From contig CP154954.1 in NCBI GenBank assembly GCA_039621445.1, forward strand, positions 41,595,572 through 41,659,571: a stretch of 64,000 nt of DNA, read 5' to 3'. The notes under the pieces were generated by a model. The model searched no databases. It was not told the DNA's origin and saw only the letters and a program-made list of their open reading frames with translations. This document shows positions 35,847-62,314 of the stretch, piece by piece (position 1 is the stretch's first letter; every line of letters starts with the position of its first letter). Made by a program: the position numbers and the translations under genes. This stretch comes from Euglena gracilis (lineage: Eukaryota).

Positions 35847-35854
35847 GTCTCGGC

Positions 35855-43250: not shown

Positions 43251-43632
43251 TTGCGCGCGCACGTGCGCACGCGTGCACATGCACACCCACACCCACACAA
43301 CACACACACACACACACGCCCACACCCACATACGCACACCCACATACACACACACATACAACACACACACACAACACACTGACACACACACAACACACAC
43401 ACACACTCACACACACACACACATGCAGGCACGCACACGCACGCGCGCACACACACGCACGCACACACACACACCACAGACACACACACAGACAACACAC
43501 CACACAAACACACCCACACTCCACACACATACACCACACACACACACACACACACACCCAACACTCCCTCCACACACACATGTGCACGCGCACAGGGACA
43601 AGCGCGCGGACGGAGACAGCACGCACGCACAC
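43251..43632. repeat. Degenerate (CA)n microsatellite; similar tracts at 52395-52470, 55530-55578, 58310-58450, 60592-60690, 60901-61005, 63525-63700
   Basis: Seen directly; mostly intronic; source of spurious His/Thr- and Cys/Val-rich ORFs. Confidence 0.95.
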
Positions 43633-43678
43633 GATGCAAAGAGGGGTGGACGCTGGTTGTTCCGGGGGTGGGGGTGAC

Positions 43679-45996
43679 GGGGGGCCAGGCGGGCCAGGCA
43701 GGCAGGCGGCGGGCCAGCCACGCTGGCAGGAAGCCCCACAGCCAGGTGGGGCGGTGCCGGGCGAGAGCGGCCGCCTCCTCGGCCCATGCGGACTGCAGGG
43801 CGCTGCGCTCCGTCAGGGCGAGCTGCAGGAGGGCCTGGCGGGCGACGGCGACACCAGGGCTGAGAGGAGCATTGTGGGGGGCGGGGTGCTTCACTTCCAC
43901 GTTGAGGCGGGGCCCATTCAGACCGCGACCCCGCTGACTCCCGGCCTGGTGCGGCGGAACGGGAGTGCCCGTTCTGCCGCTTTTCTTTTCCTTTCTTGTT
44001 TCCTTTTCTGGCTTTGGCTCCGGACCCCCCCCCCCCCCACGGGGGGTCAACCAGGACTAGCTGAAAATGCCCCTCCCCCCCCTGCTGGAACTTGTCTGGA
44101 ATCTTTGCAAAAAAACACTTTGATTTTGGGACAAGTGCCAGAGCGGCCGACGGGCGACTGGTTTTTGAAAAATGTCCCACCCATAAAAAGGTCGAAACAT
44201 TCGCAAACCTGGAGCACCATTTGCAGACATCAACACCACAAACCCACACGTGGGCACCATCACAGGCTCTGGGTGTGTTCTTGGACGATGCGCAGCTCCG
44301 GTAAATACTGCTCGATGCGATTTCTGTGGCAACGCCTTGGCTCCATCATAATCCCCCCCCTGACCAAGGTTGCCACCAACATGCAAGATTGTACGCTCCC
44401 CCTAACAACCATCCAAAAATGTCTCCCTCCAATGCCCCTCTTTGACCAATTGATGACCAAAGAAGCAGATTGTAAATTGGAATAACTCTCCCCAAGGTGT
44501 CTTGTAACAAAAAAAACAGGAAAGCGCGCCTCTGTTTAACCAATTTTCAAACACATTTTTGCCAAGTTCAAGGTGAATGACGGACAAGACACAGATAAGG
44601 GAAACAAGAAGAGGAAGAAGAAGACTAATGACGGCATATTCCATCATTGCAGTTGGATATATGATGACCCCATATAAACGACACCGCATTTCTTGCCGGT
44701 GATCCCCCATCGGTATCCGGCGGGTCTTTGACCAGAACCATCTGGAGTCGTGGGCCCCCCCTAAAACGGCCCAAAATTGTCCAGATTCACGAAATTTATT
44801 GGGGTGTTTGGGCGAAATGCTCGAACTCAAAAAAAGCACCCAAAATGCAATTTAAATAAAAAACACAACTTCTGTAGTTTTGGCACTTTTGACGTTTTAT
44901 TTGACGTTGAATTTGCCTCAATTTTGTTGTAGCGATGTGTCCCTTTCTGAGAGGGAAATTGATGATTTTCCACCCTGCTTGATTCCTTCACAGGCATGTG
45001 GCAGGGGGATGTGTATAGATATATATATATATATATACACACACACATACATACATACATACATACATACATACATACATACATACATACATACATACAT
45101 ACATACATACATACATACATACATACATACATACATACATGCATACAAACATACATACACAGAAATGGCAGCAGGATGCGTAATGGCCTCCCTCGGGGGG
45201 GGGGGGCATTACGCATTTCTGGGGGGGGGCATGGCAGCTCCCAGGTTCGACTTTTCGGATTTTCAGTCCCGCGGTGCTGACAGGTAATCCCCGGAGATAA
45301 GGCCGAGATTTAGTCCCAAATTAAAACCCCCAAATAAGAACCCCCCCCCCCCAAAAATGTGACCCCTCCTGGGCCGATCGAGCGAAAATACAAAAACAAG
45401 ACCCCCCCAAAAAACAATATCAAAAACTCCAATGTGATACACAAAAAGATGATAAAATTTCAAAAATTTTCAAATTTTGAAGCTCAAAAAAAACATGCCA
45501 AATGTCAACTTACACCAATTTACACATGGCGCGAAGCGTAGAAGGAAAAAAATGTTTCAATGTTTTTGGGAACCTGTAAAATTATGGGGTTTTCGGGCCC
45601 GGGTCAGTCAAGAAAAAAATCAAAATACGACCACGCAACGGACCTGAAAATGAGACCCGGTTTTAATTTGGGGGGGGGTGAGGCCTAAATTCAGGCTTTC
45701 GTTTGACCTAAATCACACCTAACTGCCAAAAAAAGAACCGCAACCCTGACCCTAGCCAGAATCTTGTCCCATCTCAGAAAAAAAAATCCAAGGCTTCACA
45801 ATAGCCGAAGGGAAAAGCATGGGGGTCCTAGAAAACCACCTCCCAAATTATTTACCCCCCTCCGGAATATCCTGGTATTTTGGATGCCGTTATAAATTTA
45901 TGCACACACATAAAACACACACACACACATACATACATACATACATACATACATACATACATACATACACATATATATATACATACATACATACAT

Positions 45997-46028
<32 letters not shown>

Positions 46029-49000
46029 TACATGGCAGCTGGTGTTCAATGGCCCCCCGGGGGCATTAAACATCTCCATGGGGGGGAGTATGGCGGCCTG
46101 CGGGTCCGACTTCGGGGGCAGTCGGGGTTATTGGTTGGGATAGGGTCAGGGTTCCGACCGCGCTCCTGGCTGATCCTATTTTACGGACTTAGGGATAGTT
46201 AGGTCCCGATTCGGACCGAGTTGGGCAGAATTTCGGTTGGATTTTGGTAAAATTCTGAAGAACTACGACCCCAAAATCTTTCAAATGGGGATTAACGTCC
46301 TACCTAACTTGGTTCCTAAATTTGGCCAATTTCTGTTTCGCCAATCCTAACATTATTCCGAAAAGTAAACAAAATCCTCCCCAAATACAACGAAATTCGC
46401 CCAGATTCGCCTTGGTTCCCCCCCGATTCTCATTTTTCGTGATTTTCGGTGCACGGAAAAACAATTTGGTTTGGCCCCCTTGCATATTTTGCAACGTTTT
46501 TACTGCAAAGGGCTTCATCATCTGGTCCCCCATGGCATCTGAGTTTCGGCACAACGGATCGTCGTACCAAAAAAGCAACACTGGGGGAGCCCAGGTGCGG
46601 GCGCGATGGGTCCAGTTGGGGTGGGTCTGGAGGTACTCCGCCCAGCGCGAAGCAGTCGCCTCCCCGTCCACCTCTGCTCGTCGCTCGCACAGTGCCAGCA
46701 TGGCCTCAGGGTCGTACCCAAAGGCAGGACCAACAGCTTCAGCTTGTGGGGGGGGGGTCCAGACAAGAGCGTCGTGGGATGGGGTCCAGCAAAGGCTGGA
46801 AACAGCCAGGGAAGAGCTGGCTGACTCCCCGCCACACTCAATGCCCCCCCAATCAAATCGGACGCAGAAAAATCGAAACTGCAAAATCCTGAAAACCCAG
46901 CAAGCCCATGCAAAAAACCTCACTGTGAGTCCCCCCCCCAAAACCTGGGTAGCCCAAATTCCAACCCAATTTTGGCCAATTTGGAGCCTAAGGTTAAAAA
47001 AAAAGGATGAAAAATTGATGTTTGGGCGGAAACTGCTGGCTGGCTGGTTGGATCCTCATCCGCATCCATCCTCATTGGGGGTGAGGTGAAAAATGTTCAG
47101 CTCAACTGACTTGCAGTTCAGTCCGGGGGGGGGGGGCAATTAACCTTACTGTTCGGTCATGGTCAGCCCGTGCAGCAAACAATGCCCCGATGTAATCTGC
47201 CTCATACTCCCTCGCAGCTCCCGTGCATGAAGGAGGGGGGTCTCTGGCGAGAGTGCAGAGGATGCAAACAACCATTGCATTCCCACCACCAACACAAGCA
47301 CAAAACGCAAAGAAGCAGCCTAAACGCACACACGCACAGACACACAAAACACAAACAGAAATTCGACTTCATGCATTTTGGGGAGCCTGGGAGTAACAAA
47401 AAAATATAAAATAAAAAAATAAAAACATGATTCTCATGATTTTTTTGAAGGGTACTCACCAATGACGAAAAACTGATGTAAAATATGGTCTCTGGAAATC
47501 GGGTCGAAAATGCAGATCGAAATATTCTTTGTATCAAAATATTCTCCAGGAAAAACCCAGGAAAAAATCACAACACGGGAAAAAACATGGTTTGTTGCGA
47601 TGGGGCGGCCAGGGCCTGGTAGTGGTGCCGCTCGAATGGCAATTCTGTCATGAAGTTCCGCAGCAGCCGAGGCATCGCCACCTCCGTGAAGAACAACATC
47701 TGGGGGGGGGGGGCAATGGAGGGGCTCACGATGCGAATGATTTTTGCTGGAAGAAATTTTGAAAAGCATCATCACAGATTTGCCACACCTTGATGATGGG
47801 TTCGACGCATTTTGTACAACATTTTGGTCTGCCTTGAAATTTTCAAACCAGCGAGTGAGCCCATCCATCAGGAATTTCTTCATTTCGAATTTCTGCGGCA
47901 GAGTTTGGAAAAAATGGTTGGCAAAAATGGAAGGCTGTTTAACGTTCTTGCAACAATTCAAAACATGCTGCCGATTTGGCTTCACCTATTTCTCTGGAGC
48001 ATATCTCCACACTCCCAGTGCTTTTCATAACATGCATTAACACATTTCAAATTTAATGTGAGTTTCAACAATTTTTTGTTCAATCCAATGAATTTTTTGT
48101 TTCACGGCTGCCCCCCCTATCGGCAGGACAGATTTAGCAAAAAAAAAAAACCATGCAAATGTGAGATTCCCATTGAACGACTTGAACCACTTGACGTTTA
48201 GAAGGAGACTAGGTGCAGCTGTCCACCACCACTGCTCTGAACCTGCACCCCTGCTCCAACTCTAAATACCCCCTACCTTTTGAAACACCACAGGATAAAT
48301 AAGGTTTGGTTTGGTTGGTCAGCCCGAAGGGGGACTATATCTCAAGGAGATGCTACAAAACTCGACCTCCAACATGACCCAAAATACCACCCCAAGGTGT
48401 TATTTGGAAGCGAAATTGCACTTCTTGAGTACGCTTGGGGCACATTCAATATGCAAAAAAATACGAAAATCAGGATTACTTTTCTTCTATTCTTCGCTGG
48501 GGGGGAACAGTTATCCTTTGGTTTGGTTGGCACTCAGGGGGGTCTGGAGGTTCAGGGGGAACCTTTGTGGTCATGAACACCTGTTTCCCCCCAATCGGTT
48601 CAGACCTGATAGCTCGATGTGATGTCGGGGACGACGAGGGCCATCGTCCAGAAGAAGAGGTTGACGGCGGCCTGCGTCACGTTGGCGAGCGTCCACCGCT
48701 CGTACGTGTGCCGCGCCACGACGTGCGCCATCTCGTGGCCCACCACGCACGCCAGCTCGGACTGGCTCTCCACGGCGTGGCACAGGCCCGTCGTGACGAA
48801 CAGCGCCCCGTTCTGCAACGCCAGGGAAGAGGAGGAGTGGGAGGACGAGGAAGAGCGGGAAGAGGACCAGTGTGCGGTTGGGGACGGAGGCAGGGAAATC
48901 CACCGCTGCTTGGGACGGAGGGAATGTGCATAACCGCTCCCCGTCTTCCCACAGAATACCCTGCCCCCAGGGTTGCATGGGAAGCTCTGCAGACATGAGG

Positions 49001-52000
49001 TAGTTGGTAGGGGGGGGGGTCGCTGAGCTCTTATCTCTTTAGAGAAAGAGCGAAGCTTACCCCTGGGGAAAGGGGGGTCGGACCCCCCTTGCCCTCCCCC
49101 CCCCCCGGGTCAGGGCCACCTTGGGAACCGGCGGATTATCACCATGATCCTGGCTCCGTTCCCGATTTTTTTTTCTTCAGTCGCGAGCGACTGGATTTCT
49201 AGTTTCCAAATCACCTCCGTTTGAGCCCCAACTCCCCGCCAGGCCCGAGATATTCAACCGCGAAGCGGTCCAAATTGGGTAGGATTGGCCCCCCCTCTTC
49301 CGACTCTGCCATTTCGCTGGTGCCCAAAAATCGGTCAAAAAAATCGATTTCTCGAAAATATCTCGAGAAAACGTACATTATTTCCGGAAATGTCGGTCTG
49401 ACGAAATGTACCCATGGAGGCCCTCTGTCGCCCCCCGTTCGCCGTTTTGCCGTTTCGCCGACACGCCTGGCCCGTGTTCCAGCGCGCTTTTGCGGCCCAA
49501 ACCGGCCATTTTGGGTGTTTTTTTTGACCTTTTTTTGGTCTAAAAATCGATTTTTCCAAAATATCAAAATCAAAGGAAAAGTCCGGATGAAGCCCTTGGA
49601 ATGCCATACCCAACCATGGTTTACTTCCCCCCCCCCCCAAACTCTTCGTGTAGCCCGAGGCAAACCCCCCCCTTAATAAGTGCGCAGTGCCGCAAATTGT
49701 GCGCAGTGCCCTAATAAATGCGCACCTCCCAAGGGTCCGAAACTACCTCCCTAAAAAAGTGCACATCCCCCCAAATGGAGAAATCACTGTCACATCTCAG
49801 GTCGGAAAGCACATACAATTGTCAGAACCGTCCTCCTCAGACCAAATATTTCTATCATCCAAGCCTAAATTTGACACGTAATCACTTGACTCATAGCTTG
49901 AAATCACAAAATAGGGGGAAATTGAAAAAGAGTGGGGGAAATATAAGTATTTTCGGCTTTATCCTAAAAAGTGCCCACTGCCCTAATAAGTGCGCACCCC
50001 TTGGGGTCCGAAACAACGTCATCAAAATGCGCGCCCCCGTGCACTTATTACGGGGGGTTACGACCATTTTCCGGCCAATTTGGCCCATTTCAGGGACCAT
50101 TTTGGCCGTTTTTGGGGTCAAACAATCGATGTTTCCAAAATATCTCGGAAATGAAGCAAAATCAAAGGAAATGTCCGGAGACCTAATTTGAAGCCCTTAA
50201 AAGCCCTATCTAACGAAACTTTGATTTCCCCGCAACTCCCCGCCTCGCCCGAAATATGGTCGATTTACGGCCCAAAACAGCCGGCAGGCTTGTGACTTAG
50301 TCGTTTTCGGCCTCTTTTCGGGGGTCAAAAAATCAATTTTCTAAAATTGCTCAAAAAAGGTGGGGAATCAAAGGAAATGTCTGGAGACCTATTTTGAAGC
50401 CCTTAAAATCCTCTATCTAACGGTGCTTTGATTTCCCCGCAACCACCTGCCCAGCCCGAGTTACGGCCATTCTTTGGCCAATTCTGGTTATTTTGTACAG
50501 TTTTGGCCTGTTTTGACTTTGCCATTTTCGGCCATTTTCGGGTGAAAAAGTCGAAAAAATCGAATTTTTTTTTGCCGGAAACGATGTTTTTTTGGCCTCC
50601 CGGACCCGAAAAACCTATTTCTCGATTTTTTTCGACTTTTTTGACCCGGGTTTGACCCAAAGTCAATGGCCCAAAACGGGGCGCTGGCGGATCGAAAAAC
50701 GCCCATTTTCGGCTCAAAAACGGTTTTTCCGGGTCCAGGAGGCCAAAAGACATCGTTTCGGGCATTTTTTTTTCGATTTTTTTTTCGACTTTTTGGGCCG
50801 AAAACGGCTAAGTCGAACAGTGGAAAAAGTGTACAAAATAGCCTAAATTGACCGAAAAACGGCCGTATCTCGGGCTGGGCGGTGAGCTGCGGGGAAACCA
50901 AAATCCCAGTACATAGACCGTTCCAAGGGCTTCAATTTAGGTCTCCCTCCGGACATTTCTTTTGATTTTGCATCATTTTCGAGAAATTTTGAAAACATCG
51001 ATTTTTTGACCCCCCACCCCCCCGAAAACGGCCAAGTCGGACAGTGGGAAAAGTGTACAAAACGACCATCTGGGCCGAAAACGGCCGTATCTCGGGCTAG
51101 GCGGGGAGTTGCGGGGAAATCAAAATACCGGTAGATGGGGCGCTCCAAAGGCTTCAAATTAGGTCTCCGGACATTTCCTTTGATTTGGCTTCATTTTGGA
51201 AATATTTTGAAAAACTGGTTTTTTTGGCCAGGGGTCGCCAGGGGTCAGCTTCGCTCTTACCCAAAAAGGGATAAGAGGTCAGCGACCCCCCCCCCAATAC
51301 ACCCCATACTCATTTTGTTGGATTTTTTCAACATTTTGACCCAGTGTTGACCCAAATTCCATGGGTTTCGAGCCAAAACCGAGGCGCTGGTGGGTCGAAA
51401 AATGCTCATTATCGGGTCAAAATCAGGTTTTCCGGGTCCGGTGTGTAATTAGTAGTAAATTAAAAATTACGCGAAATTTGCAATGCTAGTCTTTCGGCCT
51501 TCCATTACATGCAAGTCCCGTTATGAGCTCAGCACTATTCAAAACCTGGTCACCCCCTCCAGGGGGGTAAGGTGGGGGGGGTCACCCCCCCTAGTTTCGG
51601 AAGGGGGTCCCCCCCACTCCCTCCCCCTCCTCTGCAGGGGCAAAAAAAAATTTCCGGCGCTTCACGCCGGGTGTGTATTTTAGGACCCTCTTGAGATTCA
51701 GCATGAAATTTTGGCAAAATGGCCAAAAATGGCCGTAACTCGGGCAGGCGGGGAGTTGTGTGGAAATCAAAATACTGTTGGATAAGGCATTTTAAGGGCT
51801 TCAATTTGGTTCTCCTGACATTTCCTTTGATTCCTGACCATTTTTGACCCAAAAAACAGCCGAAATTTTCGGCGACTGAAAACTGGAGGTAGGAGGGGGG
51901 GTCCCCCCACACCCCCCTGGTTTTGGAGGGGGGTCCTCCCCCAGAGATTCCCATACAACCCTGCCCGTCCCCACAAAACAATGCCATAATCCAAACGGTG

Positions 52001-55000
52001 CAGACAAAAGAAGAAATATACAAACAAATTAAACAAAATACCACAAAAATACAAAAGAATGCCCAGACAGAAGAGCTGCCCAGAAGCAGTCTTCACCATG
52101 GGATCACGGGCCTTGACCAGAGGGGGGCACCTGAAACGAGCACGCGTTGAACGCCTCGTCACGGATGAAATGGCAAGACCAGCTCCGGGACCGCAGTTCG
52201 GGGGACCCGGCCACCAGCCCATCCAGGATGGTCCGCAGCGCCGCGGAGGAGGCCTGCGGAGGGTCCACCACCTCCTGCAGCGACGTCTCGTACGCCTCCT
52301 GGACGATCTCGTCCACTGCCCCGAAGGGGGCACTTTGATGCAAAAACAGATCTTAAAGGAGAAAACAAAAGGCATTGTTGTGGATATACGTCGTAGTGTT
52401 TGTGTGTGTGTGTGTGTATGTTTTGTGGTGCGTGAGTGTGTGTGTGTGCGCGCGCGTGTGTGCATGCGAGTGAGCACATATACAAATATCTACAAATGCA
52501 CATTTCTGTACCCGCATGTTTCGGAATATCCACCGATGTGTTCTCAAAGAGGTGGGAAGGCACTGGGAGGCTTCGGCTTCAAAGGGGTCCCCCGGCGCAA
52601 TCTCCCAGCTGGCCAGCCACGTCATCTGCCAGCGGCCGGTGACCGGGACCAGGCATTATTATTTTTTAAGGCGCCTTAAAAAACCTTAAAAAACCTTAAA
52701 AAACCTTAAAATTTTTTTTGCCAAAATGCCTTAAAAAACCTTAAAAAACCTTAAAAAACCTTAAAAAAATCACCCCGGGGAAGTTTTTCTTCCCCGTGAT
52801 GACCTTAAAAAACCTTAAAAATTTTCCCTGGGAAATTTCTTCTTGCAACAAACAAATAATGGCATATCTGAAACCCCGCATAAAGCCAGTCCCCAAGGCA
52901 GAAAGAACGAAGCGGTTTTTCAGTTTTTTTTTACCTTCTTCCATTTCTCAATGCTGTCTTTTGGCTGAGTTTTATCTTAGTTCTTTGCGAACAAAATTAC
53001 ATTGAAAAATGAACCCAAAATGTATGGTGGTTGGTTTTTTGATGGAAAATCACATTTTCCCAAAAAAAATCACCAAAATTTTAGGGATGAAAATTGTTAG
53101 TTTTTAGGAGGGGGGCCAAAAAATGCAGGTCAAAAAAATGGGACCAAATTTTGGAACAGTCAAATTTTACTGACATTTTTTCCCTTGTAAATTTTTTGGT
53201 TTTTAGTGGCATTTTTTTGCTTCCAAAATCTCTCAAAATTAAAAGTTTGAGAAATGTTGATTTTGAGAAAAAATCAAAGATTTCAGGGTTAAATTTGGTA
53301 GTTTTAGGGGGGGGGTGGAAAATAACGAAGGTCAAAAAAGGTGGACCAAATTTTGGCACAGTCAAATTTTACTGACACTTTTCCTCTGTCAAATTTGTTG
53401 GATTTTCAATGGCATTTTTCTTGCTTCAAAACCCTCTCAAATTCAAAATTTTGAGAAAATGTTGATTTTTTGGAAGATGTGAAAAATGGGGTTTTGAGGG
53501 AGTTTAATGGCCATTTTTGAGGAAAAAGTTCTAAAGTAATTTTTTGTCATCAAAAAGTGACGTTTTTAAGTTTTTCCAGGCTTTTTTTGTTGCGTTTTTT
53601 TAAAAAAAAACATATTTTTAAAAAAATTGTTTTCTTTCTAAAAAATTTATTTGTAAAAAACTTGTTTCTTTAAAAAAACGTTTTTTTTTAAAAAAAAACA
53701 CATGCTTTTTTAAAAAAAATTGTTTCAAAAAAAACAAGCAGTCAACCTTGGCAAGAACCTATGGTCAAGCCCCAACCACCCCGCACTTACCTTCCTTCCC
53801 TTGTGTCCTTCCCGTCGGCTCAGTCACACCACACCCATACCCCCCGGACCTTCCTCCCTACACATCAACAAACAGCCCCAAAACACCACATCAAGGCGCC
53901 GCAAGCAACGCAATCCGGCAAACACCCAGGACGCACACCGCCGGCAGCTCGGACACATCCGGGGACACAGCCGAAAGGAGCAACAGGGGCAGTAAAGGTC
54001 CCGTTCCTATGGTGCTTTTTTGTGTTTTTTTCAGGGTGGGCCGGCAGGGTCCCGTAGGTTTGGGCCCACAAAGTCCTTCCCGACACACCCCAAAATCACT
54101 GTTTTCCGCCAAAGTCCCGGGGGTCTCCCAGCCAAAATCAGAATTTTGCTCATTTTTTGCACTCTCTTGTTCACGTGTTTTCAAACCCCCCGGACCTTCA
54201 CAGCCGAAACAGAGCACAATCAAAAAAATCGTAAATTTGCGCAAATGCGCGCATCAAACGAAAAAAGCTTAAGTGCGAATTCGGCCGCCTAAGTTCGGGT
54301 TTTGGACCCGAAATAATGTTTCTGGCGTCTTCGGCGCCGGGTGTTTTTTTTTTGACCCATTTTGGGACCCATATGCAGGAACCCATAGCCAAAATGGCCT
54401 AAAATTCCTAAAATGCCTTGAATGGACTAAAATTCCTAAAATGTCTAAAATGGCAATAACTGTCCCTCATGGACCGCCCTGATCCCATGCTTCGCCCGAG
54501 GCTTCTTCCTTGGGCGTTCCGAAGCCACAGAAGTCTGAAGCCATCGGGCCATCTTCGGGGTCTGAGATTTTACCTGAGGAAAAAAATGCCTTAAAAAAAC
54601 CTTAAAATTTTTTAAAATTCCTCAAAAACCTTAAAAAACCTTAAAAAACCTTAAAAACCGCCTTAAAATTTTTGAGAAATCTCGCCTTAAAAAAAATAAT
54701 GCCTGACCGGGACCTGGTCCACGTGGGTGTACGCGAAGGCGCCGCCCCCCCCGACGAGCAACGCCCCCCGGAGCCGCTGCGGCCAGCCTTGCCCCCGGTC
54801 GTATCTCTGCCCCGTATGGGCCGACGTGGATCGAGAGAGTCTGGCTGAACGGCAGCAGTCAGCCAACCGAACAACGACTGCTGTGAACCGGGGCCAAATG
54901 GTCGTTGACACGCGCACCAGTCTATTTGTATGCAGTGTGTGACTATGCCTGCAAATGTGTGTGCTGCTGTGCGGGATGTGTTTGTGCGGGACATGAATTG

Positions 55001-55810
55001 GAGCAACCTGTGTAAGTGAAACGCTCATGCCCGAAACGAGAAATGTACGCCTCGGAAAGGGAAGCAAGAGGAGGAGAAATGGAAGGGAAAAGCTGGTTGC
55101 TTTCCCAGCCGACTGTGGATGAGTTCGGACAGTTGCCGCTGTCTTTCTCTGCAGGCACCATCCTGTCTGGCTCGAGGCCCCAGAAGACGAAAAAAATGGA
55201 GGGCTGCCGGGACCATTCCCCCCTCCAGCACCGCACTCCACCTTCTAGGAAACAATACATATGAAACAAGTGCCAGGAACTGAGGGAGAATATAATAAAC
55301 TACTCTAAAGACCAGCCAAAAAAAACCACCAGCTGTCAAAGCGACTGCGAACATTTCCTGGTGGTCAACCCACCCCAACTCTGGACTCCTGTTTCTTTGG
55401 TGAATTTGGGCTTGGCAGCAGCTGTGAATCACAAACTGGTGTTGGCCGACGGCCAACCTGTTGGAAAATGTTTGGTTTGTAGAGCACAGCAGACCACACC
55501 CACCCACCCCACCCACCCACCAGCCGCCCACACATGCACACGCACACACAACACACACATGCACACACATGCACACACCAGGGCTGCAAGCGGGAGGGCG
55601 ACCCCCCCAAAAACCACGGCAGGGGGTGGTAGTCGCCTGCCTGGGGGGAGGAAAAAAGAAAATCGACGAGGGAAATCAACCACCGGGGGTTGACAAAGGA
55701 GGGGGTGTATCCGCAGGAGGGGGGGATGGGGTAACAGGATGTTGGGCCCCCGCCACAAACCACGCCCAGCGGCTCACCTTGAGCAGGCCGAAGAAAATGG
55801 GCGGCGGCAT
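43679..55810 (-). CDS. OMA1: OMA1-like peptidase family M48 zinc metalloprotease, at least 9 exons; 3' end unresolved
   Basis: Exons 55810-55778, 54806-54709, 52644-52564, 52332-52131, 48812-48606, 47699-47622, 47209-47165, 46719-46597, 43849-~43679. Translation contains YTHVDQVPVTGR, NACSFQNGALFVTTGL, ELACVVGHEMAH (HExxH), LPFERHHEYEADYIG, ARAGYDP, YLQTHP, which are M48/OMA1 motifs. Introns 2, 6, 7, 8 are non-GT-AG. Exon 1 and the exon 3/4 and 8/9 junctions are less certain; no stop codon located. Confidence 0.85.
43850..46596 (-). other. Probable non-conventional intron 8 of OMA1-like gene
   Basis: C|ACCTGGGCT...AGCCCTG-GTGTC|G; complementary ends, Y|R junctions, in-frame join HRAR-AVARQA; pairing register is less clean than in the other introns. 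Confidence 0.65.
45016..45160. repeat. (TA)n(CA)n(CATA)n compound microsatellite; second one at 45905-46028
   Basis: Seen directly. Confidence 0.95.
46720..47164 (-). other. Non-conventional intron 7 of OMA1-like gene
   Basis: T|GAC-CATGACCGAACAG...CTGTTGGTCCTG-CCTTT|G; paired ends; restores ARA-GYDP. Confidence 0.88.
47210..47621 (-). other. Non-conventional intron 6 of OMA1-like gene
   Basis: C|TAC-CAG...CTG-CGAGG|G; gives LPFERHH-EYEAD with the usual M48 R-x-x-E-x-E-A-D spacing. Confidence 0.82.
49018..51287. mobile_element. Non-autonomous TIR element (~2.3 kb) in OMA1 intron 4
   Basis: ~40-bp imperfect TIR GGTCGCTGAGCTCTTATC...GAGCGAAGCT at both ends; body related to 14676-16043 and 57400-57620; TSD obscured by G/C runs. 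Confidence 0.7.
52650..54705. mobile_element. hAT-like non-autonomous element (2056 bp) forming OMA1 non-conventional intron 2
   Basis: Ends CAGGCATTATT...TTAAGGCG and CGCCTTAA...AATAATGCCTG; perfect 8-bp TSD ACCGGGAC at 52642-52649 and 54706-54713; subterminal (CCTTAAAAAA)n arrays at ~52674-52770 and ~54589-54668; interrupts the conserved VP|VTGR coding stretch. Confidence 0.92.
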
Positions 55811-55867
55811 GGCTCAGGGGTCGGCCGCGGGCCCCCCGCCAACCGGGGTCTGCCGCACCGCCGATGC

Positions 55868-55915
55868 CTGCCGGGGGCGGGGGAAACCTGGGGAGGAGTG
55901 GCAGGAGAAAAGACG
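55868..55915 (-). promoter_or_regulatory. Polypyrimidine tract plus AG, candidate trans-splice or 5'UTR acceptor for the OMA1-like gene
   Basis: Minus strand TCTTTTCTCCTGCCACTCCTCCCCAG and CCCCGGCAG, about 60-80 nt upstream of the ATG at 55810. Confidence 0.4.
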
Positions 55916-56693
55916 CAGACCGCGGACCAGGTCCCCGTCCACCGCAGCCCTTTTGGGTTTTGTTGGACCAACGCCGGATCTGTTTCTGAAACCCATTTTC
56001 GTTGTGTTCCACTTTTTCTGTGCCAAGCTATTCTAATTTTGTATTGTTTTGCGGTGTGGCGTATTGCGATGCCAACCTTCGAAACCTGTAACCCCCCCCC
56101 CCCCGCGGTCGGCCGAAAGGGGGGGGGTAATAAATCAAGGAATTGTTGGTGAAAATCTGACCCTCGGAATGACCACAAACACCCCCAAATCCTTGTCAAA
56201 GTTGGTCAAAGATGGCATTTTGGTGATGGACGACGATTTGGGTGGCTTGGGGGCGAGAAAAGCCTTGCATTTCCAGTTTCTGATTTTGGTTTTTGGGGGG
56301 AACTGGGTGACACACCAACAGTGGGCAGCAGAGGTGCTCCTTCACAGACTCACAGGGAACCCTATGAAGGGGGTGCCTGGACCATTAATGCAAGACAATG
56401 CGACGCAGTCCCTGGACACCAACAGAGTGATGGATATGGGACACAGCGCAGCCAGACCGCAAAGCAAATGAAGCCCCCCGCAGCCCCCTCAACGAAGGGA
56501 ATGAATGACGTGTCGCCACTATGGGCCGGTGCTGTGCAACAAGCCCCACCGATCACGGCGCTTGCGTCCGGTTGGGGAGTCCCGGCGGGCCGCAGGGCTG
56601 CACAGGCGCGCGATGCGTCCCCCCTGCCCAGCCCTGCCCTGCCTCCCCCTCTCTCTCCGGGCTGTCTCACGGGCCACGCGACCCGCCCCGGGG

Positions 56694-59600
56694 TCAGGCG
56701 CTGCCGCCCCCCGCGGCAGGGCCCGGCGGGGGCGGCGGCCCGCGGCGCTGGATGCTGAGGAGGACGTTGGCGATGACGGCGTGCAGCGCCGACGCGGAGG
56801 GGCTGCCGCCGAACGCCTGGATGAAGCCGCCCCCAGGGGAGGGGGGGAGGGGGGTCGACCCCCCCCTGCCTGCTGGGGTGCCAGGGGAACGCGAAGCGCC
56901 GAAAAAAAATGACGGGGTTTCAAAACCTGCCCCACACCCACATTGTTGGTCATTGTTTTCAACACGTTGGCAAAAACATATGAGAAATGCACTCCGGTTT
57001 TTGGCGCGAAGCCCGGACCGCCCCGCGGGGAGGGGGAGGTGATCCGAACCTCTGACGTGGGAGGGGGAAGGGAGGAGGGGGGCAATGCGATGAGGGAAAG
57101 GCACAGAGAGGGGTGCGTGGGTTGGGGCCCGCCCTCCGCTGGCCGCGGCCGTCGTCCTCGCACTCTGCCAGGTTGGGGTCGATGGGCACCTGTGGGGGGG
57201 GGGGACGATGGAGACCGCACGGGGTGTGGGCCCGGAGGGGGGGGGGGGGGGGGGGGGGGAGGGGGGGGCCGACCCGGCCGAGGAAGGGCACGCCCTCCGC
57301 CGCCGCGAGGCGCTCCCCGCCGCCATGGGAGAAGATGGCGGTGCACTCCGCGCAGTGCGGGCGGGGCCAGCGGGGCCACTGTCCCACCCGTGGGGGACGT
57401 TGGCCCGGGGGGGGGGGGTCCGAAAAGAGGCCGTTTTGGAACGTAAATCGGCGATATCTCGGCCTTGGCGGGGAGTTGCGGGGAAATCAAAATACCGTTG
57501 GATAAAGCATTGTTCGGGCTTCAATTTAGGTCTCCGGACATTTCCTTTGATTTTGCTTCATTTCCGAGATATTTTGGAAACATCGATTTTTTGACCCCCC
57601 AAAAAACAGCCCAAAATGTCCCCAGAAATGAGCGGCACCCGGTGACGGGGGGACCGGTGGCGACCAACCGACGCGACAAAGCCGGATGGGCGGAGCCCGG
57701 GGCCCGCTGCGCAGACGAAGCCGGACATGTTCTCCACGATGCCGAGGACGGGGAGCGACGCGACGCGGCAGAAGTCCAGCTCCTTGCGCACGTCGTCCAC
57801 GGAGACCTGCAGCCACACGCGCATCGCTTCTGAGCCGTCGGTATATTTAACAACACATCCAATGCTGCAGCCAACGTTGCGTGGAAACGCTGAACTACAC
57901 GTACAATATTTGCCAGCTCCACTTCCCTCGCTGGCCCGCGTGGAAACCGATAACCACAATCACCATTTGTCCAGGCTGCAGTCGTCACAGAGTCGGTCAC
58001 ATACATTTTTTTTTACCGACCCCGGGGGGGGGGTCACTTCCATTTTCCAAAAACCAGTCACTCACCTTTTTCTGGAAGACCAATCAATCACTACCCATCA
58101 GGGGGAGGGTTGCTACTCTGAAATCCAAAGAAAATTTGACCACAACCGTGAAAAAAACGGAAATTTTTTTTGGGGATGACTGGTTTTTCACTCTGAAAAA
58201 CCAGTCATACCCCCCGGGGGGGGCAGCCAGCGATTGAGTGATTGTATGGTCGTTCATCAGTCCAGCAACCACAGCTGCGTGGCCCAACCCCATGAGATGC
58301 GTGTGCGGCCACACAACACACAACACACACAACACACAACACAACACAACACACACACACACACGCACACACACACAGAGGCACACACACATACACAACA
58401 CACACACACACAAACACACAAATCCAAACACAACTACAACTACACAAACACCGACAGAACTGTCAGCCCACCTCTTGGGGAGTCGTCACAATCACCGCAC
58501 CAGAGGGGTTGTAAGGCTGTGAAAAGAAAAAAGAAGCAGCAGAGGAGATTATGTGCGCTTTCGAGCACCCCCAGAGACAGCAGGCAACCTGCGCGAACAC
58601 ACCTTTGGTTCACTACCCCCCCCCTGGGCGCTTGGCCCAGGCCATAATTAAAAAAAAAAGAAAAAAAGGTAAGGCCAGGGGGCCAACCTTAGGGGGAAAG
58701 TTTGCATGTAAAGAATTTTGGCCTCCATGTGCAAAAAGCCGAAGGCCAACTTTAGGGAGGCCAAGTTTTCATGTAAGGAGGAGGGCGGGCCAAGCGCCTG
58801 GGGGGTACCTGGATAATGCCGGCCCTTTACAATCCGCAATGTGGTTTGGGCTTCCCTCCCCCTCCTCTCCAACGGATGTGTCAGCCACCAGCCCCACAGC
58901 AGTCAAAAGACGAATGTGTGGTGGTATGTGCATATGTTGCCGGCGGCATACAATCAGGTTGGCGCACGTGGCGATGTGTTCGTCGCTGGTCCCCGGGGGT
59001 GTGTCGATGATGAGGTAGTCCAGCGGCCCCCAGTTGACGTCGGTGAAGAACTGCGGCACGAAACACCCAGGGCGATGGGCAGCCCCAACTGCTTCACTTC
59101 ACACGCCAGAACGCGAATCCCAGCCAGGTCCAAAAATATGACGTTTTTGTACGCGACTTTTCGGGCTGAATTTTCTTAATCCAAACTCTGTGAATCAAAA
59201 AGGTGGACTTTGTTTCCAAATTGGAACAGAAGGGAATCCGGGTTGCAAGAATTTCCAAAAAACCCTCCACTGTTCGAGACGACTTCGGCCAGGGTTCTTT
59301 CCTACGATGTTGCCAAGAGCAGGCACTACCCCCTGCCTCCCCCCAGGTTGACTTCAGGTCATAACGGGTCCGACCCAAAAAAACTTTCCTTGAAAACCTC
59401 CCACCCCCAAAATCAGACCCCAGGCCGAAAAAATCCAACCCCTGGTCGGAAAAAAAAACCACTTTCCCTCTCAACCAATAGCACCCCCCCCCCCCTGGTT
59501 GCACTAAAGCTTCTTGTTTGTTTATGGCCGGCGCTAACTTCGCTTCTGGCCCAGTTTGCTGTGTGGTGGCCAGGTACCCTTACACCAGTGCTCTTTTGTT

Positions 59601-60948
59601 GCTCCACCTGGCCGGGTGAGCAACTCTGGTGTAATTCCAGCACCCCCCCCCCCGGAGAGCGGAGAGGGTCTGCATTTTCTTTGAACAAAAACCTGATCTT
59701 CTTGGCAAATCTCAAAAGTATGATGAGCGTCATTTTTTTGGGTAAAAAATGCCTTTTCTTCTGTGCCACATGTGCAAAGACTTGCAGCTTGTATTGCGGA
59801 CATTTTTGATGATGTGTAACCTGGCTGTCTGATTTTTCTCGACGCCAGGCAATTTTTCATTCACCAATTCTGTCCACCCCAGTTCCCGCAGTTCTTGCAT
59901 GGTGCTCAAGAGACTCCTCTCTTGAGCTGGAGTGTTCTCTGCAGCAGCTTCAGTTCCAGTGAATGAAATGACATGCATTCAATCGATCAATCAACTGTTC
60001 GCAATGAACGTGTGAAAATACTCCGGCGTTCACAACAAAAACGGAGCGCTGGGACCTGTTTGATCATGGCGTTCTTGCGGGGCCCCCGCCACACGATCGC
60101 GTCGTCGGGGCCCACCATGAAGCCGATGGAGATGGCCCGGGGGCAGGCGGCGGACCGCTGGCCGCCGTCGGGGCTCCGATGTCACAAAGCAATGGTGGCT
60201 GCTGCCTGGCTTCCTGCCTGGCCATCCCGTTGCAACAGATTGCGTCGGCCAAAGCATCAAACAGCCGCAATAGATATAAAGAGAAGAAGGCATGCAATAT
60301 TGACATGGGTTTTGGGGGGGGGGTATTTCAACGTAGGTTTGAAGGTGGGATGAGCACGCCCTCAGCTACTCAGCCTCATGGTCGAAACTTCATTTATGGC
60401 CATTTATGGCCAAGGGTTCATTTATGTGCTTCAGTGCATGGAAAGCACCGAAAACATACTCATTCACTCCTTTATTTACTTGTGCTCATGCAATAAAAAA
60501 CAAAAAAAGGAATACAGCGTCTTTGCCATGAATGCACACTGCACCTGCATTTCTCCCACTCATACAAAAACACACGATCAGTGATGCTCAGCACACACAC
60601 ACACACACAATACACACATACACACAACACAACGCAACACAACACACACGCACACGCACACACACACACACACAAGAACGCGCACACAAGAAGAAAGACC
60701 AGATCCAGCGGCCTGGGGATAATTGTCCTGCCTGCTCCCCACTGACTGGCACGGCGATCGGTGTCCACCCCTCGGGTCTGCCGGGAATGAGAAACGTTAC
60801 ATTTCAACTTATTCGATGACGCGCTGGTTCAAGAGAAAAAATTATGAAAAAAGGAGATGCCACGGATAACCGCCATCCCAAGCCCAAATTCCTGAAACTG
60901 GCACACACACACATACACACACATACATGCACACACACACACACACGC

Positions 60949-61009
<61 letters not shown>

Positions 61010-62314
61010 AACGACGTGCCACGACGGCAGCGCGCACACACCCCTGAGCGACGTCGCGGCCCTCCACGCCCAGGATCTTCGGCACGCTCGGCCCGCAGAT
61101 GTCGACGTCCAGGATGCCCACGCGGTGCCCCTCCAGCGCGAGGGTGAGGGCCATCTGGCACGCCACGGTGCTCTTCCCCACGCCCCCTGTGCCCCGCGGG
61201 AACCCCACGGATGGCCCCGACACCAGTCAATGCCGGGTTGGGTGAGCGGGCGACACACAAAGCGTCGCGACGGAGGGGGAACGACACGCAAGGCACTTTG
61301 CTTGGTGAACACCCGAAGGTGCACTTGCTGGGCCCTGGGAAACTGTCACCAGACAAGTCAGGGAGTACAGCGGTTGGTGACAGGTCCCTCCCTGTGTGGA
61401 CAGATCAGCGAGTATGGGACCGGAGGACAGTTTCCCGGGGGGGGGGGTTGGATCAGAGGGAAAAACTGACATTTGACCCCCCCCAACCGACACAAAAACC
61501 CGAGAATTCGGGGTTTCACATATTTGTGGTCAGAAGCCAGATGAAAATGGAGGAATTTTTTTTCAACTCAGGAAACATGCTTTTTTCAACAAAAAAAGGT
61601 GAAAATTCTCAAAAAAATATGGTCAGTGGGTGCAAAGGTTGGTGACAGGCTCCTATGAGGATGGGTTCGTGGGTACAGAGGGTAGAGGACAGTTTCCTGG
61701 TGGGGAGAGTTTCCCCGAAGGGGAAGGGGTGGGTATCATAATGTCATGAACGACTATGAATGCATTTGTTAATATGTCAATTACCACAAAAAAACCAAAA
61801 AGACCCCATAATTGTTAGAAAATCTTCATTCCTTCCTTGGTGCGTTCAGAACATAAAGAAAATTAACTGCACACCCTCCTTATCTCATCCCGCCTCACCC
61901 CACTTCACACTATTCCCTTCTACATTCATCCAATATCCCGTACGGAAAAATCTGTTCCACTTTTTTTTGGGTCAGCAGGATGTTTGGAAGCAATGGAGCC
62001 TTCTGACGGAAAGCGGTTGGTGGGGGGGGGGCGGGTTCTGGTTAGCGGTTTCGCAGAACAAACCAGCAGAGAAAACGAGAATCCATCCCTGCCGGGGGGC
62101 GGCGGGCACGGCACACCAGGGTTCGATATAAGGAGAGGGGGGGGGGGGGTACGGACCCCCCCCCCCTGCGGGCCAGGAGGGGGGGGGTGGGGACACCCCC
62201 CCCCCACCTAAACCATGTACGCCCTCCTTATATCGAACCCTGCGGCACACCCTTGCCGCTCAGCACCAGGACCACGTGCTGGATGAGGGCCATCCGGGCG
62301 GCCAACTCGTCCAT
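56694..62314 (-). CDS. NUBP2: Cytosolic Fe-S cluster assembly factor CFD1/NUBP2-like P-loop NTPase (Mrp/NBP35 family), 10 coding exons, ~285 aa
   Basis: Exons 62314-62251, 61186-61042, 60777-60719, 60138-60056, 59050-58952, 58516-58472, 57806-57713, 57362-57274, 57189-57145, 56828-56694 join in frame (858 nt). Motifs: [14 protein letters not shown] (Walker A), [15 protein letters not shown]...[59 protein letters not shown]. No N-terminal Cys-rich NBP35 extension, so CFD1 type. Six GT-AG introns and three non-GT-AG introns (60139-60718, 57363-57712, 56829-57144). Confidence 0.93.
56829..57144 (-). other. Non-conventional intron 9 of NUBP2
   Basis: C|GGC-CAGCGGAGGG...CCCTCCCCTG-GGGGC|G; restores DDGR-GFIQAF; junction 8-mers GCCGCGGC and GGGGCGGC match at 6/8. 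Confidence 0.88.
57363..57712 (-). other. Non-conventional (non-GT-AG) intron 7 of NUBP2
   Basis: Minus strand T|GCG-CAGCGGG...CCCGCTG-GCCCC|G; CAG at +4, CTG at -8; removal restores FVC-PHC. Confidence 0.9.
60139..60718 (-). other. Probable non-conventional intron 3 of NUBP2
   Basis: T|CCC-CAGGCCGCTGG...CCAGCGG(7-nt bulge)CCTG-CCCCC|G gives GQL-W-AISIGF. An in-frame GT-AG alternative exists but gives a poorer protein. Confidence 0.7.
62117..62242. mobile_element. hAT-like MITE, 126 bp, at the donor end of NUBP2 intron 1
   Basis: TIR CAGGGTTCGATATAAGGAG / CTCCTTATATCGAACCCTG; perfect TSD CGGCACAC at 62109-62116 and 62243-62250. Confidence 0.92.

What the first reader, a model, noticed from the sequence alone, without database searches (positions are those of the whole stretch)
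43850..60718. Seven non-GT-AG, end-paired introns mixed with spliceosomal introns in two housekeeping genes
Seen: OMA1 introns 2, 6, 7, 8 and NUBP2 introns 3, 7, 9 give the best restoration of conserved protein motifs when cut with CTG at -8..-6 and a complementary triplet (CAG in five, CAT or TGG in two) at +4..+6, followed by further stem pairing. They alternate with ordinary GT-AG introns. Established: this dual system characterises euglenids and, to my knowledge, its excision machinery has not been identified. Inference: the window shows an age series from perfect TIR plus TSD (OMA1 intron 2), through a 6/8 TSD remnant (NUBP2 intron 9), to stem only.
Basis: partly seen in the sequence, partly recalled or inferred. 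Interest (0 to 1): 0.8.

Follow-up and report, generated by a model that had tools for sequence, protein, structure and literature searches.

The report
Euglena nonconventional introns, one a transposon
Two Euglena housekeeping genes mix ordinary introns with the already well-described "nonconventional" euglenid introns, and one of these is an intact small transposon-like insertion, which supports the old idea that such introns began as mobile DNA.

Summary
The window is Euglena gracilis nuclear DNA: eight exons match EukProt E. gracilis transcript protein P0005 at 100%. Both genes lie on the minus strand: a NUBP2/Cfd1-type ATPase and an M48 (OMA1-like) peptidase. I reproduced all seven proposed introns exactly.

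- Two (NUBP2 introns 3 and 7) are fixed by the transcript-derived protein. Neither has a GT-AG option.
- Four more (NUBP2 intron 9; OMA1 introns 2, 6, 7) give the best homologue-restoring junction.
- OMA1 intron 8 is not supported. In-frame GT-AG junctions score as well or better, and its ends barely pair.

Five of seven fit the published Euglena splicing code N3-CDG...CH'G-N5-6|R (PMC12501133). This intron class is known genome-wide, so the finding is ordinary for the organism.

OMA1 intron 2 adds something: a 2,056-bp element with a 17-24-nt terminal inverted repeat and a perfect 8-bp (extendable to 10) target-site duplication. At least four further elements with similar CAGG-type ends and 8-bp duplications lie elsewhere in the window; one is shown to be intronic, three are not shown to be exonic. 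The code's 3 + 5 spacer bases equal the 8-bp duplication.

The parts
56742..62314 (-). NUBP2/Cfd1-type P-loop ATPase gene. Ten exons are mapped, with ATG at 62314. The 3' end is not defined beyond about 56742.
   Evidence: Pfam ParA/NUBPL hits. P0005 maps at 100% to exons 2-9. Exons 1 and 10 are placed by homologues P0001/P0002.
60139..60718 (-). NUBP2 intron 3, nonconventional, 580 nt. It has CAG at +4..+6, CTG at -8..-6, and the next exon starts with G.
   Evidence: It is the only junction that reproduces P0005. Motifs. In-register stem 5+2. Flank 8-mers match 0 of 8 (my count).
57363..57712 (-). NUBP2 intron 7, nonconventional, 350 nt. Its centre, 57429-57633, is a copy of a roughly 200-bp interspersed repeat.
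   Evidence: Three sliding junctions reproduce P0005 and none is GT-AG; one fits CAG/CTG. Stem 7+2, and the terminal stem is kept in the full-length fold. Repeat copies.
56829..57144 (-). NUBP2 intron 9, nonconventional, 316 nt, CAG/CTG. The flank 8-mers match 6 of 8.
   Evidence: The best homologue-restoring junction set (score 128) includes the code position; the best GC-AG alternative scores 112. Stem 3+6+3. P0005 does not cover this intron.
52645..54708 (-). OMA1-like intron 2, nonconventional by the code, 2,064 nt. It equals element C plus 3 + 5 nt of the duplicated target.
   Evidence: Best homologue score 101, against 59 for the best GT-AG option. Stem 11+5, duplex z = -7.3.
52650..54705 (.). 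Element C, a MITE-like insertion of 2,056 bp. Its TIR starts CAGGCATTATT (17 nt at 94%, about 22 of 23 with one indel). The TSD is ACCGGGAC on the + strand, 8/8, and extends to 10.
   Evidence: the repeat finder I16 and D12. Ends aligned. Flank test.
47210..47621 (-). OMA1-like intron 6, nonconventional, 412 nt, CAG/CTG.
   Evidence: It is the best of 27 signal-bearing in-frame junctions (128 against 116 for a GC-AG option) and restores the homologues' spacing. Only 3 contiguous pairs, then 4 of the next 6.
46720..47164 (-). OMA1-like intron 7, non-GT-AG, 445 nt, CAT/CTG. The exact borders are uncertain.
   Evidence: It is the best unrestricted junction (141, three sliding positions, none GT-AG). 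The best GT-AG option scores 118, and a code-fitting N6 CAG/CTG alternative (47154..46719) scores 121. In-register pairing is 8 of 9.
43850..46572 (-). It is probably a GT-AG intron instead, 46579..43860 or 46567..43860.
Evidence: The ends pair only as two wobbles plus one pair.
43631..55810 (-). M48 (OMA1-like) peptidase gene with nine exons placed by homology. Introns 4 and 5 are GT-AG. Intron 3 is unresolved (GT-AG or GC-AG options). Intron 1 was not examined in detail.
   Evidence: Pfam Peptidase_M48. tblastn of P0088/P0089. Boundary views. Junction tests.
62117..62242 (.). Element D, 126 bp. It has a 19-nt perfect TIR starting CAGGG and the TSD CGGCACAC (8/8). It sits inside GT-AG intron 1 of NUBP2, so the left TSD copy is the intron's first 8 bases.
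   Evidence: Hairpin fold -107 kcal/mol, z = -7.5. Intron 1 model.
32416..32845 (.). Element A, 430 bp. The TIR starts CAGGCATT (15 of the first 17 positions match) and the TSD is GTTCAGCC (8/8).
   Evidence: No protein-like frame crosses the restored site (by eye only).
40956..41075 (.). Element B, 120 bp. The TIR starts CAGGG followed by a T-run and TAAG (15 of 16 match). The TSD is GGCTGGAT / GGCTGGAC (7/8).
   Evidence: The fold is not better than shuffles (z = -0.9).
35545..35846 (.). Element F, 302 bp. Its left end is identical to B's. Its right end has CATG instead of CCTG. The TSD is GTCTCGGC (8/8).
   Evidence: It is partly similar to B (67% over 105 nt).
35855..36279 (.). Element G, 425 bp, directly after F. 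Its TIR starts CATAGCTGGC, and it is flanked by the same 8-mer, so the site holds three copies of GTCTCGGC.
   Evidence: (I21).

Best explanation
Six of the seven introns are ordinary members of the euglenid nonconventional intron class: NUBP2 introns 3, 7 and 9, and OMA1-like introns 2, 6 and 7. They are interleaved with spliceosomal GT-AG introns.

Established elsewhere:
- The two intron ends pair, with CAG at +4..+6 against CTG at -8..-6 and further pairs inward.
- A still unidentified, apparently spliceosome-independent activity cuts 3 nt upstream of the helix on the 5' side and 5 (or 6) nt downstream on the 3' side, before a purine.
- The intron is released as a circle, after the GT-AG introns have been removed.

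Shown here:
- The junctions, the motifs and the in-register pairing.
- OMA1-like intron 2 is an essentially intact MITE-like DNA insertion (TIR plus 8-bp TSD) in a conserved coding motif.
- Similar elements with CAGG-type ends and 8-bp TSDs lie at other sites in the window, one of them shown to be intronic.

Inferred:
- Nonconventional introns start as insertions of such elements.
- The 3 + 5 = 8 spacer bases of the code are parts of the two TSD copies, both cut between TSD positions 5 and 6. Excision therefore removes the element plus exactly one TSD copy and restores the pre-insertion reading frame.
- The TSD and the TIR then decay.
For: - Species and exons: P0005 (Euglena gracilis EukProt entry) is 100% identical to eight exons.
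- NUBP2 I3 has 1 possible junction and I7 has 3; none is GT-AG, and both carry CAG/CTG in register. The chance per position pair is 2.6e-4.
- For NUBP2 I9 and OMA1 I2 and I6, the top homologue-restoring junction coincides with the code position. The best GT/GC-AG alternatives score 112 against 128, 59 against 101, and 116 against 128.
- OMA1 I7: the best junction of all in-frame options is non-GT-AG (141 against 118).
- All 7 proposed introns are followed by G, as the code requires (PMC12501133, section 11).
- In-register stems are present in the six and absent from the GT-AG introns, apart from a partial one in NUBP2 I1.
- TIR and TSD of OMA1 I2.
- Flank test: of 1,116 CAG...CTG pairs with at least 9 of 12 in-register pairs, 3 have 8/8 and 1 has 7/8 identical flanking 8-mers. 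With the flanks displaced by 10 nt, 0 of 1,116 reach 7/8; the binomial expectation is 0.52.
- Element F has another perfect 8-mer duplication.
- The published E. gracilis consensus, CCAGG at +3..+7 and CCTG at -9..-6 (PMC11170887, section 10), equals the element termini.
- The published paired rules fall on the same TSD positions (5, 6, 8) in both copies. [quoted passage not shown]
- A recently gained E. agilis gapC nonconventional intron has 8-nt direct repeats (PMC4770533 passages).
Against: - No RNA evidence could be obtained for this locus.
- Only NUBP2 introns 2-8 are tied to an E. gracilis transcript product. All OMA1 junctions rest on homologues of 41-66% identity.
- OMA1 I7 has T at +6. 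In the knock-in assay, substitutions inside the CAG or CTG abolished splicing (PMC12501133, section 7).
- End-duplex energies beat shuffles clearly only for OMA1 I2. The full-length fold of NUBP2 I7 is no better than shuffles (z = 0.05).
- Five of the six introns show no convincing TSD (0-3 of 8, and one at 6 of 8).
- The elements share ends but almost no interior sequence.
- A loose terminal motif is not enriched in the window (17 matches against 20.4 +/- 4.7 in shuffles).
- My first TIR+TSD scan had dirty controls: 11 hits on the reversed sequence and many for other trinucleotides, caused by the 3.88-kb tandem repeat and low complexity.
- No transposase, no empty site and no second genome were examined, so mobility is inferred from structure only.
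Confidence: 0.85

Rival explanations
1. All junctions are really canonical: nearby GT-AG sites or extra micro-exons would remove the need for a second intron type.
For: In-frame GT-AG or GC-AG options exist for OMA1 I8 (scores 136 and 122 against 124) and for OMA1 I3, and weaker ones exist for I6, I7 and NUBP2 I9.
Against: NUBP2 I3 and I7 have no GT-AG option that reproduces the transcript-derived protein. For I9, O_I2, O_I6 and O_I7 the canonical options lose 12-42 score units and delete or add conserved residues. The class is documented genome-wide in this species (PMC11170887).
Confidence: 0.03
2. The direct repeats at the borders of OMA1 intron 2 come from double-strand-break repair with fill-in, not from transposition. 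This was proposed for the E. agilis gapC intron, and on this view the inverted ends are only what the splicing system selects for.
For: PMC4770533 (abstract and gapC passages) offers this reading for an 8-nt repeat. The elements here share little interior sequence. No transposase was seen.
Against: The same repeat length (8) recurs at five different sites with five different sequences, next to ends that share a common start. That includes sites where no splicing selection should act: element D inside a GT-AG intron, and A, B and F with no protein-like frame.
Confidence: 0.12
3. OMA1 intron 8 is nonconventional, as the reader proposed (TGG at +4..+6, CTG at -8..-6).
For: CTG sits at -8..-6 and G starts the next exon. 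38.8% of E. agilis nonconventional introns lack the strict signature (PMC12501133, section 11).
Against: TGG fails the N3-CDG rule. The ends pair only as two wobbles plus one pair, and the duplex is no better than shuffles (z = +0.9). GT-AG junctions sharing a C-rich acceptor tract score equal or higher.
Confidence: 0.2

Closest known systems
Euglenid nonconventional introns (Tessier/Muchhal-Schwartzbach 1990s, recalled; Milanowski 2014 PMC3935182 and 2016 PMC4770533; Gao 2024 PMC11170887; Nomura 2025 PMC12501133)
   Same: They share non-GT-AG borders, CAG/CTG at +4..+6/-8..-6, terminal pairing and a purine at the start of the downstream exon. They also share sliding borders caused by direct repeats, and they coexist with GT-AG introns in one gene.
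   Different: Nothing essential differs for five of them. OMA1 I7 deviates at +6. OMA1 I2 is unusual in keeping a long TIR and a perfect 8-bp (to 10-bp) duplication.
Recently gained nonconventional intron 4 of gapC in E. agilis ACOI 323 (PMC4770533)
   Same: It is a nonconventional intron with eight-nucleotide direct repeats at the junctions, taken as a sign of recent gain.
   Different: That case was attributed to double-strand-break repair. Here a long TIR and sister elements at non-exonic sites point to transposition. Presence/absence among strains is not known here.
Introners / MITE-derived spliceosomal introns (Micromonas, Aureococcus, dinoflagellates; reviewed in PMC11282704)
   Same: A DNA element with a TIR and a TSD lands in an exon and is removed from the RNA, and the TSD contributes to the cut sites.
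   Different: Those are removed by the spliceosome at GT-AG-like sites. Here the removal follows the helix-measured euglenid code, and the product is reported to be a circle.
hAT-superfamily non-autonomous elements (for example maize Ds acting as an intron; Giroux 1994, cited in PMC3935182)
   Same: They share an 8-bp TSD and short TIRs. From memory, their TIRs begin with a similar few bases.
   Different: No transposase was seen. Other superfamilies also make 8-bp duplications, so superfamily membership is open.

Membership tests
Euglenid nonconventional intron | No GT/GC-AG pair at any junction compatible with the mRNA | tested here: met
   Met strictly for NUBP2 I3 (1 option) and I7 (3 options) against P0005. 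Met by homology scoring for NUBP2 I9 and OMA1 I2, I6 and I7. Not met for OMA1 I8, which has GT-AG options of equal or better score.
Euglenid nonconventional intron | 5'-N3-CDG ... CH'G-N5-6 | R(exon), with the middle bases complementary (PMC12501133) | tested here: met
   5 of the 7 proposed introns fit, all with CAG/CTG and N5. OMA1 I7 (CAT) and I8 (TGG) do not. All 7 are followed by G.
Euglenid nonconventional intron | Intron ends base-pair and bring the splice sites together | tested here: met
   In-register stems start with runs of 5, 7, 3 (then 6 and 3), 11, 3 and 2 (8 of 9 overall) pairs in the six introns. Nine of the ten GT-AG junctions start with runs of 0-2 and show little further pairing; NUBP2 I1 is a partial exception. 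Energy z-scores are modest except for OMA1 I2.
Euglenid nonconventional intron | Removed from the RNA, after the conventional introns, as a circular molecule | not testable with these tools
   No reads could be laid on the locus. Known from PMC6221363 (abstract) and Guminska 2021, as cited in PMC11282704.
MITE-like DNA transposon with 8-bp TSD (hAT-like) | Terminal inverted repeats at the exact ends | tested here: met
   Element C has 17 nt at 94%. D has 19 of 19, A has 15 of the first 17 positions, B has 15 of 16, and F matches with a changed third base.
MITE-like DNA transposon with 8-bp TSD (hAT-like) | Target-site duplication of fixed length directly outside the TIRs | tested here: met
   8/8 in A, C, D and F; 7/8 in B. 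4 of 1,116 structured pairs reach at least 7/8, against 0 of 1,116 with displaced flanks.
MITE-like DNA transposon with 8-bp TSD (hAT-like) | Multiple related copies, or evidence of mobility (empty sites, polymorphism) | tested here: inconclusive
   Five or six elements share end motifs, but their interiors are unrelated except B/F at 67% over 105 nt. No whole genome was available.
MITE-like DNA transposon with 8-bp TSD (hAT-like) | A cognate transposase (hAT DDE / dimerisation domain) in the genome | not tested
   No genome is held for this window. Ten long frames of the window gave only a CCCH zinc finger in Pfam.
NUBP2/Cfd1 (cytosolic Fe-S assembly ATPase) | Mrp/NBP35 P-loop ATPase domain with a CPxC motif and without the N-terminal four-cysteine cluster of NUBP1/Nbp35 | tested here: met
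   Pfam ParA/NUBPL. The P-loop and CPHC are seen in the translation, and the N-terminus starts 20 residues before the P-loop without cysteines. That the cysteine cluster separates NUBP1 from NUBP2 is recalled.
OMA1 (M48 peptidase) | Peptidase_M48 domain with HExxH | tested here: met
   Pfam PF01435, E = 2e-11, and HEMAH in exon 5. Orthology to OMA1 itself was not tested, so I call it 'OMA1-like'.

The most novel reading that the evidence does not exclude
The Euglena noncanonical splicing code may be a molecular fossil of one transposon type. On this reading:

- The conserved CAGG...CCTG are the element's inverted termini.
- The 3-nt and 5-nt spacers are the inner part of the left copy and the outer part of the right copy of an 8-bp target-site duplication.
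- The unknown excision activity cuts both copies between positions 5 and 6 (pyrimidine|purine), so any new insertion of such an element into an exon is erased from the mRNA at once and exactly.

This would explain the published paired consensus positions at the two junctions. It predicts that intact elements outside exons (A, B, D and F here) are competent introns. I found no paper stating the 3 + 5 = 8 relation or an 8-bp-TSD element family in euglenids (searches; passages of six papers). Supplements and non-open papers were not seen.
Probability: 0.5. Interest if true: 0.6.

Novelty: new member of a known kind. Interest (0 to 1): 0.38.

Why it matters
As intron annotation the finding is routine for Euglena. 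Its value is as a clean, locus-level example for an open question: where nonconventional introns come from, and why they are cut 3 and 5 nt from the terminal helix. One exonic element has an intact TIR and TSD, and sister elements sit at other sites in the same 64 kb. This turns the long-standing 'MITE-like origin' hypothesis into concrete tests: genome-wide TSD register counts, strain polymorphism, and knock-in of the non-exonic elements in the published GSL2 assay. It also narrows what the unknown excision enzyme must measure.

Tried and rejected
- **RNA evidence.** The look-up of sequencing runs listed 24 runs, but no RNA holder is listed (no listed holder is on record as RNA).
- **Whole genome.** None is held for this window, so I could not do copy counts, a transposase search or an empty-site search.
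- **Protein searches.** One search used a wrong reading frame and found nothing. One search, in the right frame, found only one longer homologue (P0088) and no E. gracilis OMA1 protein.
- **First TIR+TSD scan.** Its controls failed: 11 hits on the reversed sequence, and many for other trinucleotides.
- **Generic 10-mer-seed scan.** It was dominated by the 3.88-kb tandem repeat and a recurring palindrome, giving a false peak at 7. I replaced both scans with the flank test.
- **Loose terminal motif.** It is not enriched.
- **Element E (27807-29735).** It looked like a TIR plus 8-bp TSD, but its flanks are themselves inverted repeats. I rejected it as a TSD case.
- **Rfam.** It gave no match in the window.
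- **Earlier findings of this scan.** They held nothing relevant.
- **Coding status of A, B, F and G.** I judged it only by eye from frames across the restored sites. It is not settled.
Full report
**What the locus is.** Region 43.6-62.3 kb carries two minus-strand genes. One is a Mrp/NBP35-type ATPase without an N-terminal cysteine cluster (NUBP2/Cfd1-like). The other is an M48 HExxH peptidase (OMA1-like) (Pfam; ORFs). A word-indexed protein search with one NUBP2 exon returned P0005, a 208-aa protein labelled EP00667_Euglena_gracilis_P025811 / EG_transcript_30546. It maps at 100% identity to eight separate exons. The window is therefore Euglena gracilis nuclear DNA, or a near-identical strain. 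For the peptidase only homologues were available: P0088 (66% identity in the core exon) and P0089 (41% overall).

**Checking the seven introns.** I enumerated every donor/acceptor pair that reproduces P0005 exactly.
- NUBP2 introns 2, 4, 5, 6 and 8 each have a GT-AG solution.
- Intron 3 has a single possible junction (60718..60139), and it is not GT-AG.
- Intron 7 has three sliding junctions, none GT-AG. One of them (57712..57363) puts CAG at +4..+6 and CTG at -8..-6.
- Intron 1 is GT-AG by homology.

CAG/CTG in register occurs in 5 of 7, CAT/CTG in OMA1 intron 7 and TGG/CTG in OMA1 intron 8. All seven are followed by G. The chance of CAG and CTG in register at a random position pair in this region is 2.6e-4 (2 million samples). 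The two transcript-fixed introns alone therefore exclude coincidence.

**Junctions not covered by P0005.** I scored all in-frame, stop-free junctions against the homologues.

| Intron | Best junction | Best GT/GC-AG alternative | Comment |
|---|---|---|---|
| NUBP2 I9 | 128, a sliding set of at least six positions that includes the code position 57144..56829 | 112 | |
| OMA1 I2 | 101, an 8-to-10-position sliding set that includes 54708..52645 | 59 | One junction inside the element scores 102 |
| OMA1 I6 | 128, the code junction 47621..47210, best of 27 signal-bearing candidates | 116 | |

For OMA1 I7 the intron is non-canonical either way, but its exact borders are open. For OMA1 I8 I regard a GT-AG intron as more likely.

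**End pairing.** I paired +4 with -6 and read inward.

| Intron | In-register pairing |
|---|---|
| NUBP2 I3 | 5 + 2 |
| NUBP2 I7 | 7 + 2 |
| NUBP2 I9 | 3 + 6 + 3 |
| OMA1 I2 | 11 + 5 |
| OMA1 I6 | 3, then 4 of the next 6 |
| OMA1 I7 | 8 of 9 |
| OMA1 I8 | two wobbles and one pair |

The ten GT-AG junctions tested start with runs of 0-2. NUBP2 I1 shows a partial stem (run of 1, then 4 + 2 pairs and a wobble; duplex z = -2.8). Against the structure claim, duplex energies of the 35-nt ends are far beyond shuffles only for OMA1 I2 (z = -7.3). The other z-scores are -1.95, -1.72, -1.08, -0.73 and -1.37. The whole NUBP2 I7 folds no better than shuffles, although the terminal stem is in the MFE structure.

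**What is known.** This is the euglenid nonconventional intron class.
- PMC12501133 (abstract; sections 5, 7, 8, 11; Discussion passages) reports 71.8% nonconventional introns in E. agilis.
- By knock-in in E. gracilis it defines the code 5'-N3CDG.../...CH'GN5-6|R. It shows that the 3-nt donor spacer is fixed and that the acceptor spacer is 5, or less well 6.
- It notes that many genes mix both intron types, and it states that the trans-acting factors are unknown.
- PMC11170887 (abstract, section 10) tabulates 4,498 + 11,653 nonconventional and 11,527 GT-AG introns in E. gracilis. The consensus is CCAGG at +3..+7 and CCTG at -9..-6.
- The MITE-origin idea dates from PMC3935182 (passages). It is repeated as a hypothesis in PMC11282704 and PMC12501133.

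Five of the seven introns here fit the code. Nothing about the mixture is unusual for the organism.

**OMA1 intron 2 as a mobile element.** The sequence around exon 2 and exon 3 shows the conserved coding motif (VDQVPV|TGRW; homologues have VPV/VPI followed by xGR) interrupted by 2,056 bp.
- The ends of the insert are inverted repeats: the repeat finder I16, 17 nt at 94%, and about 22 of 23 positions with one indel by eye.
- The insert is flanked by a perfect direct repeat of 8 nt, extendable to 10 (D12).
- In the code register, the intron consists of the last 3 nt of the left repeat, the element, and the first 5 nt of the right repeat.

**Sister elements.** I asked whether the same architecture occurs elsewhere in the window. 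Among all CAG...CTG pairs 40-6,000 nt apart with at least 9 of 12 in-register Watson-Crick pairs (n = 1,116), the flanking 8-mers are identical at 8/8 in three and 7/8 in one. With the flanks displaced 10 nt outward, none of the 1,116 reaches 7/8, and the binomial expectation for at least 7/8 is 0.52. The four are:
- element C (OMA1 I2);
- A (32416-32845);
- B (40956-41075);
- D (62117-62242).

All start CAGG, then run T-rich into TAAG, often followed by G/C runs. D has a 19-nt perfect TIR and folds as a hairpin (z = -7.5). D lies inside GT-AG intron 1 of NUBP2, with its left duplication being the first eight bases of that intron. A fifth element, F (35545-35846), has B's left end, a right end with one changed base, and a perfect 8-mer duplication. 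It is followed directly by a sixth element, G, with different ends and a third copy of the same 8-mer.

**Caveats on the elements.**
- My first scan had contaminated controls.
- The interiors of the elements are unrelated, except B and F at 67% over 105 nt.
- The loose end motif is not enriched.
- B's fold is not exceptional.
- Whether A, B, F and G are outside exons was judged only from the lack of protein-like frames.

**Reading of the geometry (inference).** The 3 + 5 spacer bases of the experimentally defined code sum to the 8-bp duplication. Both RNA cuts then fall between duplication positions 5 and 6. Removal of the element plus one copy restores the target.

The published pairwise rules fall on the same duplication positions (5, 6 and 8) in both copies:
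- a pyrimidine at the end of both the upstream exon and the intron;
- C at exon +3 (PMC4770533) and C at intron +3 (PMC11170887).

The one intron reported as recently gained within a species has eight-nucleotide direct repeats (PMC4770533). The authors explained these by break repair.

I found no paper stating this relation or describing an 8-bp-TSD element family in euglenids. The searches were, together with passages of six papers. From memory only, an 8-bp duplication and similar first bases of the TIR recall hAT elements. No transposase was seen, so superfamily membership is untested.

**The 'age series'.** In the 8-nt register, flank identity is 8/8 for OMA1 I2, 6/8 for NUBP2 I9, 3/8 for NUBP2 I7, 2/8 for OMA1 I7, 1/8 for OMA1 I6 and 0/8 for NUBP2 I3 (my counts from the output). 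About 1% of control flank pairs reach 6/8 (11 of 1,116). One such value among five introns has a probability of roughly 0.05. The series is compatible with decay but is not demonstrated. The intact non-exonic elements are the better argument for a transposon origin.

**Verdict.** The classification is right and already well known. The transposon-like state of OMA1 intron 2 is real. Together with the sister elements it gives a useful, testable refinement of an existing hypothesis.

Noticed in passing
1-14033: A tandem array of a unit of about 3.88 kb, with at least 3.5 copies at 95-99% identity. It contains a recurring palindromic GC-rich motif that produces spurious TIR/TSD signals. Shorter related pieces lie at about 22971-23254, 25002-25300 and 26363-26526.
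   Followed up: partly
62109-62250: MITE-like element D is inserted exactly 8 nt into GT-AG intron 1 of NUBP2, so the duplicated 8-mer is the 5' splice-site sequence itself. A second copy of the donor-like sequence follows the element.
   Followed up: partly
35537-36287: Two different TIR elements (F and G) sit head to tail at one site with three copies of the same 8-mer. This suggests repeated insertion into the same target or into a previous duplication. A fourth copy of the 8-mer lies at 35144.
   Followed up: partly
57429-57633; 49226-51832; 15580-15759: An interspersed repeat of about 200 bp, in copies of 75-89% identity on both strands. It forms the centre of nonconventional NUBP2 intron 7 and occurs at least six times in the 3.3-kb GT-AG intron 4 of the OMA1-like gene.
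   Followed up: partly
27807-29735: A 1.9-kb segment bounded by 34-nt near-perfect inverted repeats. The inverted similarity continues at least 20 nt further out, so the apparent 8-bp duplication is part of a longer palindromic structure. Its nature is unknown.
   Followed up: partly
62250-61187 (minus): NUBP2 intron 1 has GT-AG ends, but its ends also pair in roughly the nonconventional register (duplex z = -2.8). This resembles the 'intermediate' introns discussed in PMC4770533.
   Followed up: no
43250-43600, 52400-52480, 55529-55583, 58300-58460, 60590-60700, 60900-61015, 63510-63680: Imperfect CA/TG-rich microsatellite-like tracts recur inside or next to introns of both genes and match each other at 77-90%.
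   Followed up: no
37317-38243 (+): A 309-codon open frame with a CCCH zinc finger (Pfam PF00642, E = 1.5e-8). It is probably an exon of a third gene. Nine other long frames tested had no Pfam match.
   Followed up: partly
53002-53486 and 14159-14540: The interior of OMA1 intron 2 holds two tandem units of about 204 bp, 80-86% identical to a segment in the 14-kb region that is flanked by long G runs. The element may carry nested or shared repeat modules.
   Followed up: partly
47154-47120 (minus): Thirteen nt inside OMA1 intron 7 there is a CAG followed by TAAGG and a C-run, resembling the element termini. The original element end may lie there, and the functional border may have shifted.
   Followed up: no
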